Shown here one piece after another: positions 15,001-18,000 of a stretch of 47,716 nucleotides of DNA (position 1 is its first letter; the number at the start of each line of letters is the position of its first letter). The stretch is from a virus (Duplodnaviria > Heunggongvirae > Uroviricota > Caudoviricetes): the IMG/VR virus record IMGVR_UViG_2925929528_000002, positions 1 through 47,716 of that record. One strand, written 5' to 3'. A program made the position numbers.

Positions 15001-18000
15001 CGGGTTAGTAATTCATGGCGGTAGTTATCCGGCCGTTATCCTCAACGTTATAGGTTTTCTTCTCACCTTTATCATTGACCAGGGTGATTTCCAGCTTCAT
15101 TTTCTGATCGGCCATCGCCTCTTTGAGAGAGCTCGTCAGGTTTTCGCTGGCTGCCTCTCTCCCGTTGCCGGAGGCTGTCAGGATAGAAGAGCTGTCAAAC
15201 GTATCAGGCTGAGGCGCGAGGATGTTCTGTCTCTGTTGACTGAGTACACTACTATCACGAAGACCTGACCAACGCGGGTCACTGATGGCCGTCTGAATTG
15301 CAGCCCGTATCTCATCTTCAGAATAGGGCTGTGCGCCATTCTCATGCTGAATCATGGCTGCCATGACAGATTTCAGTACTTCCGGGTTATGGAGATCCAT
15401 CCGCTGCTGGGGCTGGAATCCCGTCGCGGCTGATACTGAATTGATGTAGGACTGGGTATCATTTTCCGACCGCGGCGCATAGGTGTGGATCATGCTGTTC
15501 AGCGTATTATTGCCACGATCACCGAATAGCATTAGTTGACGCGCCATCGCCGCCAGCCCGTCGTTGCTGTTGTCATAAGTGACGAAACCACGGTTCACCC
15601 CGGTCGCATTGGGTGCTATCCGGAGATTGCCGGGGTTATTATTTCTCAGGCCCAGTGCCTGGTTAGATGGTTGGCTGTAATTCACATCCCCGCGTGGAGC
15701 TGCAGGACCTGCTGGCAGAATAATAGACAAATCATTACGGAGTTGTTCAGCTCTGTCACCGGCGCCATATTGCGCGTCGTAGCGTTTCCGAACAGCATCC
15801 GTCATAAAGCCGGCATCCACCGCCCCGCGATCACCACGTGAAAGGGTGTTATATAGTGCTCTATCCCCCTGAATACGGCGTAGTTTTTCGGCATCCTTGC
15901 TACTGATAAACCCCAACGCATGTGATAGCCCGGTAAAGTCGCCATTCGTGAAGAAGTCTGTCACACCTTCGAGACCGTCTTTCACCGAGCCATCAGAGAG
16001 TAAGCCCTTAAACAGAGAGTTTTTCGAACGGTTTTTCAGCCCATCCCATGCAGCGCCCAGTTCATTCATGGTGCCATTTACAGCGGACAATTGCCGGTTA
16101 AGTTCCGGATCCACTGTCAGACCGAGCTCATCGGATTTCGTCAGCAGTGCTTTCATCCGTACGCCTTCACGCATCAGCGCCAGCATTTCCGGGGTCAACC
16201 CGAGGGCATCGGAAACCGACTTCTGCTGGTCAGGACGCAGGCTCGGGAAAACGCGCGCTATCGATTCCAGCGTTCTCAATGTATCAACGGATCCGTCATT
16301 GTTTTTCTGGATCTGAACGCCAATCTGCGACAATGCGCCAAGCACCTGGCTGTTGGCACCGCTGGCGGCCTCCTTCAGGTTTTTAGCCATCCCCTCGATG
16401 GAAGCGTTGGCACTGTCGCCATCCGCCCCCAGTATCCGCATGGCACCGGACAGTCGGGAAAAATCCTCCACCCGCATACCCGCATTTTTCGCAGCAACAT
16501 CGAGGTTATAGGCTTCCCTTGAGGCCTCATGGAAACCATAGGCAATCTGTTTTAACCCGTATCCCGCCGCCCCGACCACACCAAGCGACGCCAGCTTTCC
16601 TGACAACTCACCGACCATCTTCAACGGCGGCACCATATCCCCGATGTACTGCACATTATCACGGGCATTTTTGGACAGATTTTCAAAACGGGAGATAAAA
16701 CCGTTCAGTCCATCGAGGGTCTCCTGTCCTCCTAACTGGAGACCCTCTTTGGTTTTATCCAGCTTTGGTTCAAGATCACGGATTGCCTCATTGATACGCT
16801 CAATGGCTTCCGTCGCCTGGTCACTGGCCACCAGCTCAAAGTCGAAAGAATTACTCATCGGATTTGGAATTCCTGAGTTTATTGATACGGGTGGCCTGCG
16901 ATACCCACCACTTCAGACGGGCATAGGTCATGCCCCACGCCCTGTCCTCTGTCCAGCGGAAATAAAATGTGACGTCAGCGGCCGTTTCCTGCCAGGCGGT
17001 CAGGGCTTCCAGGTCAAAAAACCGAGCAAAAACTCCTCGCATTTTCGGAAGTCGATAAAATCCATCGGCTGAAGCACGCTTTCCCGCGTATCCGTGACCA
17101 GCGAGATCAGCAGACGCATTGCCGCCAGAGAAGTGGACGATGTCTGCTTTTCGTAGAACTGCTCTGCCTGGCTGAGCGTCGGTGCCTTCAGCTCCAGTTG
17201 CTCATAGCGCGTTTTTTGCGCCTCATCGACAAGAGGCTTGATGAGAGGAATGACTTTGGTGCGTTCAAGTTCTGCCATCTTAGTTCTCCGTTACGTCCCG
17301 ACCTTCCCAGCGAACATCAAACACTGCATCTTCGCTTTCCACCTCCTGAACGTTAACCGTCCAGAGTGCGCGACCGATAATAGTCTTTCCGTTCGCCAGC
17401 TCGGCGATCACGTTGACGTTCGTCTGACCGTTAAACCCCAGCACGTTAGTCCCGCCACTATCACGCAGACGGGCTGAAATATACGGGGCAACCGGTTTTT
17501 CTTTATAACCATGTACTCCGTCCATGCCTGTCAGCGTGGTGCGATTGACAGTAGCTGTCTGGTACTTGAACGAGCCCTCCACCATCACAGTCACCCCATT
17601 GACGGTGACATAGGCGGTACCCGCCAGGCGGTTAGTGGTATCTCCTGCCATGTTTTATGCTCCTGTTGACTCAGCCTGCAGGCGGAACTGATTAAGCAAC
17701 GCAAAGATGCGCAACTGGTTCATAAGCGTTCCCGGCCACAGTACGTCAACGCGGTTCGGGTTCGTTTTGTTCTGCTCAACAATAATGTTTCTGGCAAAAG
17801 CCTCTGCGTCCTGCGCATAGCCGTTGAAGACCAGCGTCTGATATTCCGCAATCTGATCGGCCCTGATTATGTTTGGCGTCACAATCGCCGCCCCCGGCGC
17901 AAAACGCGTGCCGTCCGCGGCCAGCTTCATGCGACCAAATTTACTGGTCACTGCTGTACGGAGATATCGCGTGACAAACATCAGGCTGAACAGCGTTTCC

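What the first reader, a model, noticed from the sequence alone, without database searches (positions are those of the whole stretch)
16851..17278. Programmed -1 frameshift in the tail assembly chaperone gene
A canonical slippery heptamer T_TTT_TTG sits in the correct register near the end of the 92-aa chaperone ORF. Reading in the -1 frame from it reproduces the separate 63-aa ORF of the track exactly (FFDLEALTAWQ...), giving a G/GT-like fusion ending just inside the tape measure gene.
Basis: seen in the sequence. Interest (0 to 1): 0.35.

Follow-up and report, generated by a model that had tools for sequence, protein, structure and literature searches.

The report
Phage tail chaperone -1 frameshift site
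This is an ordinary but real example of the programmed -1 ribosomal frameshift that tailed phages use to make a short and a long tail-assembly chaperone from one gene, and it closely copies the proven phage P2 E/E+E' case.

Summary
On the minus strand a 92-aa ORF (17278..17000, Pfam Phage_TAC_7) lies between the tail tube and tape measure genes. It carries T_TTT_TTG (17021..17015) in the ggT TTT TTG register, five codons before its stop. The -1 frame runs 54 more codons, giving a 142-aa fusion. Its TAA overlaps the tape measure start as ATGAGTAA.

One heptamer alone is weak evidence, at roughly 6% by chance. Comparison settles it:
- All 93 related sequences (60 unique, 76-100% protein identity) keep TTTTTTG at the same offset.
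- The heptamer lies in the only invariant run of 8 nt or more in the gene.
- Downstream of the zero-frame stop, codon periodicity switches to the -1 frame.
- 32 of 60 unique relatives have no start codon for the -1 ORF upstream of the site.
- Serratia phage BZS1 (about 50% identity) has T_TTT_TTA at the same codon.

Phage P2 E/E+E' has the same GGTTTTTTG, sizes of 91 and 142 aa, and the same ATGAGTAA junction.

No downstream RNA structure is conserved. An SD-like GAGG 14 nt upstream is conserved, including at a synonymous site.

Verdict: a new, unannotated member of a well-known kind. Interest is low.

The parts
17000..17278 (-). Tail assembly chaperone ORF (92 aa, P2 gpE-like), the zero-frame product. 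Stop TGA at 17002..17000.
   Evidence: ORF list. Pfam PF10109 Phage_TAC_7 E=4.8e-7, 30.2 bits against cut-off 25. phrog_166 'tail protein' E=1.5e-25. Zero-frame codon periodicity among relatives 0.13/0.07/0.43.
17015..17021 (-). Slippery heptamer T_TTT_TTG in the zero-frame register ggT TTT TTG (codons 86-88).
   Evidence: Read directly. Same heptamer at offset 257 in 93 of 93 relatives. It lies in the only invariant run of 8 nt or more in the gene, nt 256-264. Identical to the P2 E/E+E' site GGTTTTTTG (PMC3091744).
16851..17015 (-). -1 frame extension (E'-like): 54 codons 17015..16854 plus stop TAA 16853..16851. G17015 is read twice. The fusion is 142 aa.
   Evidence: -1 frame codon periodicity 0.14/0.06/0.31. 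Synonymous share of codon differences is 0.60, against 0.13 and 0.05 in the other frames. phrog_10636 E=3.3e-20. Weak similarity to P2 E'.
17033..17038 (-). Internal Shine-Dalgarno-like GAGGAG. [quoted passage not shown] It is a candidate upstream frameshift stimulator (inferred).
   Evidence: An SD-like motif is present within 12-14 nt in 60 of 60 unique relatives. The zero-frame third-position G at offset 242 is one of only two degenerate third positions upstream of the slip site that never vary. Spacing is within the 6-17 nt range reported as stimulatory (PMC4066793). The background rate of such a motif is 14%.
17040..17042 (-). ATG that opens the 63-aa ORF in this window. It is fortuitous and not a conserved start.
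   Evidence: No SD-like sequence upstream. Only 16 of 60 unique relatives have an ATG there. A synonymous TGC/TGT change in the overlapping Cys codon creates a -1 frame TGA in most others.
15005..16858 (-). Tape measure protein gene (617 aa). Its ATG 16858..16856 overlaps the extension's stop as ATGAGTAA.
   Evidence: phrog_2276 tape measure E=6.5e-140. The junction GATGAGTAA is conserved in all 10 genome relatives printed. The same ATGAGTAA junction joins P2 E' and T.
17280..17651 (-). Tail tube gene directly upstream (context).
   Evidence: PF10618 Tail_tube E=1.9e-35.
17655..19166 (-). Tail sheath gene (context).
   Evidence: PF04984, PF17482. phrog_165 E=1.2e-189.

Best explanation
This is a programmed -1 ribosomal frameshift of the phage P2 E/E+E' type, in the tail assembly chaperone gene of a temperate enterobacterial prophage with a Mu-like contractile tail.

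Most ribosomes translate the 92-aa chaperone and stop at TGA 17002..17000. A minority take the other path. With tRNA-Phe on UUU in the P site and tRNA-Leu on UUG in the A site, they slip back one base on U_UUU_UUG (17021..17015) and re-pair with UUU UUU. They then read 54 more codons in the -1 frame. The product is a 142-aa fusion with the junction ...LLGFL|DLEAL..., ending 8 nt inside the tape measure gene.

By analogy with lambda G/GT and P2 E/E+E', the shared N-terminal part coats the tape measure protein. The rarer C-terminal extension recruits the tube protein. This fixes a high ratio of short to long product, which tail assembly needs.

No downstream RNA structure is involved. The conserved SD-like GAGG(AG) 12-14 nt upstream may stimulate the shift by pairing with 16S rRNA.

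Shown here: the anatomy, the conservation, coding selection in the -1 frame, and the lack of an independent start. Inferred: the slip itself, its efficiency, the role of the SD-like element, and the chaperone function.
For: - **Anatomy and register.**
- **Family and position.** PF10109 hit, between the tube and tape measure genes.
- **Heptamer conservation.** TTTTTTG at an identical offset in 93 of 93 relatives from Escherichia, Salmonella, Edwardsiella, Kluyvera, Citrobacter, Raoultella and Klebsiella, plus IMG/VR contigs.
- **Synonymous-site invariance.** Nt 256-264 are the only invariant run of 8 nt or more. Six of the eight degenerate third positions that never vary lie at or after the slip site.
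- **Frame switch.** Codon periodicity moves from the zero frame (0.13/0.07/0.43) to the -1 frame (0.14/0.06/0.31) after the zero-frame stop. The signal is strongest at nt 279-346 (0.10/0.05/0.36), upstream of the only widely conserved Met. The synonymous fraction is 0.60 in the -1 frame, against 0.13 and 0.05 in the others.
- **No own start.** 32 of 60 unique relatives have no start codon for the -1 ORF upstream of the site. Public protein collections hold it only as 10 'hypothetical' clusters of 44-93 aa with differing starts.
- **Distant relative.** Serratia phage BZS1 (about 50% identity) has tcT TTT TTA at the same Ser-Phe-Leu codons and a homologous -1 extension.
- **P2.** It has GGT TTT TTG, E of 91 aa, E+E' of 142 aa and the same ATGAGTAA overlap with its tape measure gene. 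GenBank annotates this as a -1 frameshift, and PMC3091744 describes it, citing Christie 2002 and Xu 2004.
- **Similarity across the junction.** The fusion aligns with P2 E+E' across the junction (BLASTP E=1e-4). The family HMM scores P2 E' at 12-14 bits.
Against: - No protein evidence exists for the fusion in this phage or its close relatives.
- PGAP and the phiNP and BZS1 records annotate only the short product.
- U_UUU_UUG is not among the high-efficiency heptamers measured in E. coli (PMC4066793).
- There is no stable or covarying downstream structure: z=+1.28, covariation term -0.18.
- The extension does not reach the Pfam PF06528 threshold.
- The relatives sampled are mostly close (76-100% identity), so part of the conservation reflects shared ancestry.
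Confidence: 0.9

Rival explanations
1. The downstream ORF is an independent small gene. It would be translated from its own start (ATG 17042 in this window) to give a free 63-aa protein, with no frameshift.
For: An ATG-initiated 63-aa ORF exists in the window. A few databases list 63-aa 'hypothetical proteins'.
Against: - No SD-like sequence lies upstream of ATG 17042.
- 32 of 60 unique relatives have no start codon there.
- Five relatives have TAG abutting the heptamer.
- Called ORF lengths vary from 44 to 93 aa.
- Coding selection in the -1 frame begins right after the zero-frame stop, upstream of the only conserved Met.
Confidence: 0.03
2. Access to the -1 frame comes from transcriptional slippage. 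RNA polymerase would insert one extra U in the T6 run, so a subset of mRNAs encode the fusion directly with the junction GFFDLE.
For: A homopolymeric T6 run is present and invariant. Transcriptional slippage is a known alternative route to such fusions (reviewed in PMC5009743).
Against: - From my own knowledge, efficient bacterial RNA polymerase slippage generally needs runs of about 8-9 or more. Six T is short.
- The terminal base is part of the conserved motif (G in 93 of 93 relatives, A in BZS1), as expected for an X_XXY_YYZ ribosomal site rather than a bare homopolymer.
- The homologous P2 site is annotated and cited as a translational frameshift.
Confidence: 0.04
3. The heptamer is a chance occurrence or a by-product of the Ser/Gly-Phe-Leu protein sequence. 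Frameshifting there would be at background level with no function.
For: TTTTTTG is not enriched in the window. In-register heptamers occur about once per 230 codons. U_UUU_UUG is a weak motif in E. coli assays.
Against: - All three synonymous third positions of the motif never vary (T of GGT/AGT, T of TTT, G of TTG), while average third-position diversity is 0.43.
- The -1 extension is conserved as a protein and has a fixed length.
- The same arrangement occurs in the distantly related P2 and BZS1.
Confidence: 0.02
4. The frame break is a sequencing error or a pseudogenising indel in what was a single 142-aa gene.
For: None beyond the existence of two overlapping frames.
Against: The same two-frame layout, with a conserved zero-frame stop, is present in 93 independent assemblies and in P2 and BZS1.
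Confidence: 0.01

Closest known systems
Phage P2 gpE / gpE+E' programmed -1 frameshift (Christie et al. 2002; GenBank AF063097)
   Same: - Same Pfam family for the upstream ORF (PF10109).
- Identical nine bases GGT TTT TTG in the same register near the 3' end.
- Products of 92 and 142 aa here, against 91 and 142 aa in P2.
- The extension stop overlaps the tape measure start in the same ATGAGTAA octamer.
- No downstream hairpin (PMC3091744).
- Weak similarity runs through the junction and the E' part.
   Different: - Only about 24% identity over the aligned 78 residues.
- The extension does not reach Pfam PF06528.
- The surrounding tail genes are Mu-like (DUF2635, Mu-type sheath and tube, DNA_circ_N, gp44/45/47/48-like), not P2-like.
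- There are four sense codons between the heptamer and the zero-frame stop here, against six in P2.
Lambda G/GT and the conserved tail assembly chaperone frameshift of dsDNA phages (Levin 1993; Xu, Hendrix and Duda 2004, 2013, 2014)
   Same: - Two overlapping ORFs between the major tail gene and the tape measure gene.
- A -1 slip near the end of the first ORF.
- The long product is a fusion that shares its N-terminus with the short one.
- Presumed role in setting a fixed ratio of the two chaperones (PMC5009743).
   Different: - The heptamer differs: lambda uses G_GGA_AAG (my own knowledge).
- The tail is contractile, not a siphovirus tail.
- No detectable sequence similarity to gpG or gpT was tested or found here.
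Phage Mu gp41 / gp41-extended chaperone (verified -2 frameshift, Xu et al. 2004; AF083977 Mu_41 and Mu_56)
   Same: Same gene order as Mu gp38-43: DUF2635, sheath L, tube M, chaperone, tape measure, DNA circularisation protein N. The Pfam description of PF10109 also names protein '41'.
   Different: - Mu shifts by -2 and its chaperone is 144 aa.
- Here the -2 (equivalent to +1) frame shows no coding signal, with a synonymous share of 0.05.
- The family HMM does not detect Mu gp41.
SD-stimulated -1 frameshifts of E. coli dnaX and IS911/IS3 elements
   Same: [quoted passage not shown] This is within the 6-17 nt range reported as stimulatory (PMC4066793). It is conserved at a synonymous site.
   Different: - No downstream hairpin or pseudoknot.
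- The heptamer is U-rich rather than A_AAA_AAG.
- The stimulatory role here is untested, and the motif also encodes the conserved Glu-Glu/Asp residues.

Membership tests
Conserved tail assembly chaperone frameshift (lambda G/GT paradigm) | Two overlapping ORFs located between the major tail or tube gene and the tape measure gene | tested here: met
   Tube 17651..17280, chaperone 17278..17000, -1 ORF to 16851, tape measure 16858..15005.
Conserved tail assembly chaperone frameshift (lambda G/GT paradigm) | Slippery sequence in the correct register inside the overlap, conserved among relatives | tested here: met
   ggT TTT TTG at 17021..17015. Found in 93 of 93 relatives, with T_TTT_TTA in BZS1.
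Conserved tail assembly chaperone frameshift (lambda G/GT paradigm) | The downstream ORF lacks its own conserved start and RBS but is under coding selection | tested here: met
   32 of 60 unique relatives have no start codon. The -1 frame shows periodicity and a synonymous share of 0.60.
Conserved tail assembly chaperone frameshift (lambda G/GT paradigm) | Both the short product and the frameshifted fusion are made, at a fixed ratio, and both are needed for tail assembly | not testable with these tools
   Needs proteomics or genetics.
P2 gpE / gpE+E' | Upstream ORF belongs to Phage_TAC_7 (PF10109) | tested here: met
   30.2 bits against a gathering cut-off of 25. P2 gpE+E' scores 47.8 bits on the same model.
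P2 gpE / gpE+E' | [quoted passage not shown] | tested here: met
   Identical GGTTTTTTG. The P2 site is annotated in AF063097 and described in PMC3091744.
P2 gpE / gpE+E' | Extension belongs to the Phage_P2_GpE domain (PF06528) | tested here: inconclusive
   No Pfam hit even at E up to 10. However, BLASTP gives E=1e-4 across the junction, and the family HMM aligns to P2 E' residues 16-50 at 12-14 bits in a one-target search.
P2 gpE / gpE+E' | P2-like (Peduoviridae) tail gene context FI-FII-E-T-U-D | tested here: not met
   The neighbours are Mu-like: DUF2635, DNA_circ_N, GpP-like, Gp45, Baseplate_J and Gp48. BZS1 annotators call them Mup38-43.
Mu gp41 -2 frameshift | The extension is read in the -2 (equivalent to +1) frame | tested here: not met
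   The +1/-2 frame has a synonymous share of 0.05 against 0.60 for the -1 frame. Mu is annotated as a -2 shift.
SD-stimulated bacterial -1 PRF (dnaX and IS911 type) | SD-like sequence 6-17 nt upstream of the motif | tested here: met
   Present in 60 of 60 unique relatives at 12-14 nt. Criteria are from PMC4066793. The background rate is 14%. Function was not tested.
SD-stimulated bacterial -1 PRF (dnaX and IS911 type) | Downstream stimulatory hairpin or pseudoknot | tested here: not met
   MFE -14.3 kcal/mol, z=+1.28, with 183 of 200 shuffles folding at least as well. RNAalifold covariation term -0.18, with one compensatory pair far downstream.

The most novel reading that the evidence does not exclude
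U_UUU_UUG is an intrinsically weak heptamer in E. coli, and no downstream structure is present. In this lineage it may be tuned by a conserved internal Shine-Dalgarno-like GAGG(AG) 12-14 nt upstream, held invariant at a synonymous site. That would make this tail-chaperone frameshift a dnaX/IS911-style rRNA-mRNA-stimulated shift. It would also be a P2-type E/E' cassette operating inside an otherwise Mu-type tail module, whereas Mu itself uses a -2 shift.
Probability: 0.35. Interest if true: 0.3.

Novelty: new member of a known kind. Interest (0 to 1): 0.15.

Why it matters
The main value is for annotation. The fusion product is missing from the RefSeq/PGAP annotation of related E. coli prophages and from the GenBank records of phages phiNP and BZS1. 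A 142-aa essential tail protein is therefore being overlooked, or split into a 'hypothetical protein', across a widespread group of Enterobacterales prophages.

The case also shows a P2-type -1 site serving a Mu-type tail, where Mu itself uses a -2 shift. This illustrates how the frameshift solution varies within one chaperone family. It opens no new question about frameshifting or tail assembly.

Tried and rejected
- **Downstream stimulatory structure.** Single-sequence folds of 41 unique relatives gave inconsistent structures. RNAalifold on 18 diverse sequences gave no covariation near the site. The window's 70 nt downstream fold less well than shuffles. A CCTG...CAGG hairpin 10 nt downstream is broken, not compensated, in L038 and its close relatives (L045, L074), where both G-to-A changes occur (CCTA and CAAG). 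Rejected.
- **Enrichment of the heptamer in the window.** Not enriched, so it is uninformative alone.
- **Deeper relatives.** The genome-contig scan with a profile returned only relatives of 76-86% identity. A protein search with the extension returned only 10 close clusters with no Pfam domain. The P2-side scan gave almost only 99-100% identical copies, so no profile-profile comparison was worthwhile.
- **Other searches.** The solved-structure search on the fusion gave nothing. NCBIfam gave nothing.
- **Literature.** The Christie 2002 paper (PMC135442) is not held, so P2 details come from the GenBank record and from PMC3091744.
- **Mu gp41.** Similarity was not detectable with the family HMM.
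Full report
**1. 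What is there**

All relevant genes are on the minus strand. In order they are:
- tail sheath, 19166..17655 (503 aa)
- tail tube, 17651..17280 (123 aa)
- a 92-aa ORF, 17278..17000
- an overlapping 63-aa ORF in the -1 frame, 17042..16851
- a 617-aa tape measure gene, 16858..15005
- a DNA_circ_N protein, 14958..13558

Family assignments:
- Pfam assigns the 92-aa ORF to Phage_TAC_7 (PF10109, 'tail assembly chaperone proteins E, or 41 or 14') at 30.2 bits against a cut-off of 25.
- Pfam also places the tube, sheath and DNA_circ_N proteins in their families. The tape measure assignment rests on PHROGs (phrog_2276, E=6.5e-140). Its only Pfam match, PhageMin_Tail, is below the cut-off (20.3 against 33.2 bits).
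- PHROGs matches the 63-aa ORF only over residues 21-63, to a 44-aa family of unknown function.

Counting codons from ATG 17278, codons 86-88 are GGT TTT TTG. T_TTT_TTG (17021..17015) is therefore in the X_XXY_YYZ register, followed by ACC TGG AAG CCC TGA. The -1 frame from the heptamer reads FFDLEALTAWQ... and ends at TAA 16853..16851. This stop lies 8 nt inside the tape measure ORF (ATGAGTAA). A tandem slip gives an 88 + 54 = 142-aa fusion.

**2. Is it more than chance?**

For this one sequence, only modestly.
- TTTTTTG occurs 16 times in the window against 13.3 expected.
- In-register X_XXY_YYZ heptamers occur 52 times in 11,987 codons. That gives about a 6% chance within the 14-codon overlap.

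The comparative evidence is decisive. I collected 93 related sequences, 60 of them unique over the 440 nt compared, with 76-100% protein identity. They were the window itself, phage phiNP, an E. coli prophage, 80 IMG/VR loci, and 10 loci from nine genomes of Salmonella, Edwardsiella, Kluyvera, Citrobacter, Raoultella and Klebsiella.

- All 93 carry TTTTTTG at the same offset (257 nt from the ATG).
- The -1 frame closes at the same place, offset 425, or 428 in the L040/L077/L173/L174 clade.
- Nt 256-264 are the only invariant run of 8 nt or more in the gene.
- Only 12 of 92 zero-frame third positions never vary. Four of these are Met or Trp codons. Six of the other eight lie at or after the slip site.

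**3. Is the -1 ORF translated, and from where?**

Nucleotide diversity by codon position is 0.13/0.07/0.43 in the zero frame for nt 0-236. After the zero-frame stop the periodicity moves to the -1 frame, at 0.14/0.06/0.31.

The signal is strongest at nt 279-346 (0.10/0.05/0.36). This stretch lies upstream of the only widely conserved in-frame Met, at offset 347. The share of codon differences that are synonymous is 0.60 in the -1 frame, 0.13 in the zero frame and 0.05 in the +1/-2 frame.

The evidence against an independent start:
- 32 of 60 unique relatives have no ATG, GTG or TTG in the -1 frame between the last upstream stop and the heptamer.
- 16 have an ATG and 12 have only GTG or TTG.
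- A synonymous TGC/TGT change in the overlapping Cys codon opens or closes the -1 frame.
- In L042, L044, L046, L048 and L168 a TAG abuts the heptamer.
- The window's own ATG 17042 has no SD-like sequence upstream.
- Public protein collections hold the extension only as 10 small 'hypothetical' clusters of 44, 63, 91 or 93 aa. These reflect fortuitous starts, and they explain why the PHROG profile is 44 aa long.

A coding region under selection, with no conserved start, that begins at a conserved slippery heptamer is the signature of programmed frameshifting.

**4. More distant relatives and known systems**

*Serratia phage BZS1.* Its chaperone is 50% identical, and the tblastn match of the fusion is 47.5%. 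It has tcT TTT TTA at the same Ser-Phe-Leu codons. Its -1 extension is homologous (...WQQLAAEVTKYYGW...DAW...RL.FW.NQARRINK...) and ends at the tape measure start. The record annotates no frameshift.

*Phage P2 (AF063097).* The record annotates gpE (91 aa) and gpE+E' (142 aa) with a '-1 translational frameshift'.
- Its sequence is ...GTC GGT TTT TTG TCG..., and E' ends and T begins in ...ATGAGTAA.... These are the same nine bases, the same fusion length and the same junction octamer as here.
- PMC3091744 states that the P2 shift occurs at TTTTTTG, gives 91-aa and 142-aa products, and has no downstream hairpin, citing Christie 2002 and Xu 2004.
- The two fusions align across the junction (BLASTP E=1e-4, 24% identity).
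- An HMM of the present family aligns to P2 E' residues 16-50 at 12-14 bits in a one-target search.
- The extension does not reach Pfam PF06528, which P2 E' hits at 76 bits. Homology of the E' part is therefore likely but not established.

*Phage Mu.* Its tail gene order is the one seen here. Mu uses a verified -2 shift in a 144-aa gp41, and the family HMM does not detect it.

**5. Stimulators**

*Downstream.* There is no sign of a structure.
- Folds of 41 unique relatives disagree with one another.
- RNAalifold finds essentially no covariation: the term is -0.18, and a small invariant CCTG/CAGG stem is broken in some relatives.
- The window's 70 nt downstream fold worse than shuffles (z=+1.28).

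[quoted passage not shown] This is within the 6-17 nt range, and it is among the sequence classes (GAGG, GGAG, AGGA...) that Sharma et al. treat as experimentally stimulatory (PMC4066793).
- Such a motif is present in 60 of 60 unique relatives and in BZS1 (GAGGA, 12 nt before the heptamer).
- P2 has AGGTG/GGTGG closer to the site.
- The third-position G of the first Glu/Lys codon (offset 242) is one of only two degenerate third positions upstream of the slip site that never vary.
- Against this, the background rate of such motifs is 14%, and the motif also encodes conserved residues.

The stimulator idea is therefore a reasonable but untested inference. The same paper does not list U_UUU_UUG among the high-efficiency heptamers in E. 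coli. That fits a low-level shift, as expected for a chaperone pair in which the long form is the minor product (lambda G:GT about 30:1, PMC5009743).

**6. Context**

The window is largely a temperate prophage.
- **Regulation and integration:** integrase (44455-45441) and an S24/HTH repressor (38451-39146).
- **Lambda-type head genes:** gpA terminase, lambda-family portal, capsid protein E.
- **Mu-type contractile tail and baseplate:** GpP-like, Gp45, Baseplate_J, Gp48.

The chaperone frameshift sits exactly where it is expected.

**7. Verdict**

This is a new, currently unannotated member of a thoroughly known kind, closest in detail to P2 E/E+E'.

The fusion protein has not been observed directly. 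Transcriptional slippage on the T6 run cannot be formally excluded, and the junction peptide (GFLDLE or GFFDLE) would distinguish the two.

Interest is low. The value lies in correcting annotation, plus a small comparative point: a P2-type -1 site inside a Mu-type tail module, possibly assisted by an internal SD-like element.

Noticed in passing
window 15005-16858 (minus strand), residues about 392-541 of the tape measure protein: The C-terminal half of the tape measure protein matches PHROG families labelled endolysin and tail injection transglycosylase (phrog_873 E=1.9e-40, phrog_7182 E=6.3e-14). This suggests an embedded cell-wall-degrading domain.
   Followed up: no
window 12476-13561 (minus strand), six codons before the stop: An in-register C_CCG_GGA heptamer lies near the end of the GpP-like baseplate gene. 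Its -1 frame stays open for 198 codons because it runs into the next gene, the Gp45-like 11898-12479. This is probably just an ordinary gene overlap and a poor slippery motif.
   Followed up: no
L017, L018, L019 (IMG/VR relatives), offset 245 of the chaperone gene: These three relatives carry a second in-register TTTTTTG (gaT TTT TTG) 12 nt upstream of the conserved one, with the -1 frame already open. They therefore have two potential slip sites.
   Followed up: partly
window 16851-16858, and P2 locus L083 851-858: The extension's stop and the tape measure start share the identical octamer ATGAGTAA here, in all 10 genome relatives printed, and in P2. All 47 close-relative extensions listed end in Asp-Glu, consistent with the same junction. 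BZS1 uses TAATG instead.
   Followed up: partly
OR565852.1 (phiNP), MT843275.1 (BZS1), NZ_CM161506.1 (E. coli D53-1): Public annotations of the closest phages and of related E. coli prophages list only the 92-aa (97-aa in BZS1) chaperone. They leave a gap of about 140 nt before the tape measure gene, and the frameshift product is not annotated.
   Followed up: yes
window 668-1888 (+): A complete ISL3-family transposase gene (DDE_Tnp_ISL3, HTH and zinc ribbon domains) lies at the left end of the window, just outside the tail fibre region.
   Followed up: no
window 42082-43182 (+) and 40015-40932 (+): The prophage early region near the integrase encodes a DndB-like protein (PF14072, E=1.9e-42) and an RdgC-like protein. 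These may be accessory or defence-related cargo.
   Followed up: no
window 19000-28000 compared with 9600-19200: The virion modules are mosaic. The head genes are lambda-type (gpA terminase, lambda-family portal, capsid E with a decoration protein). They are joined to a Mu-type contractile tail and baseplate.
   Followed up: partly
window 4404-7610 (minus strand) and 7713-9041 (+): A 1068-aa ORF lies downstream of the baseplate genes and is presumably a tail fibre. A 442-aa ORF lies on the opposite strand. Neither has a Pfam match at E up to 0.001.
   Followed up: no
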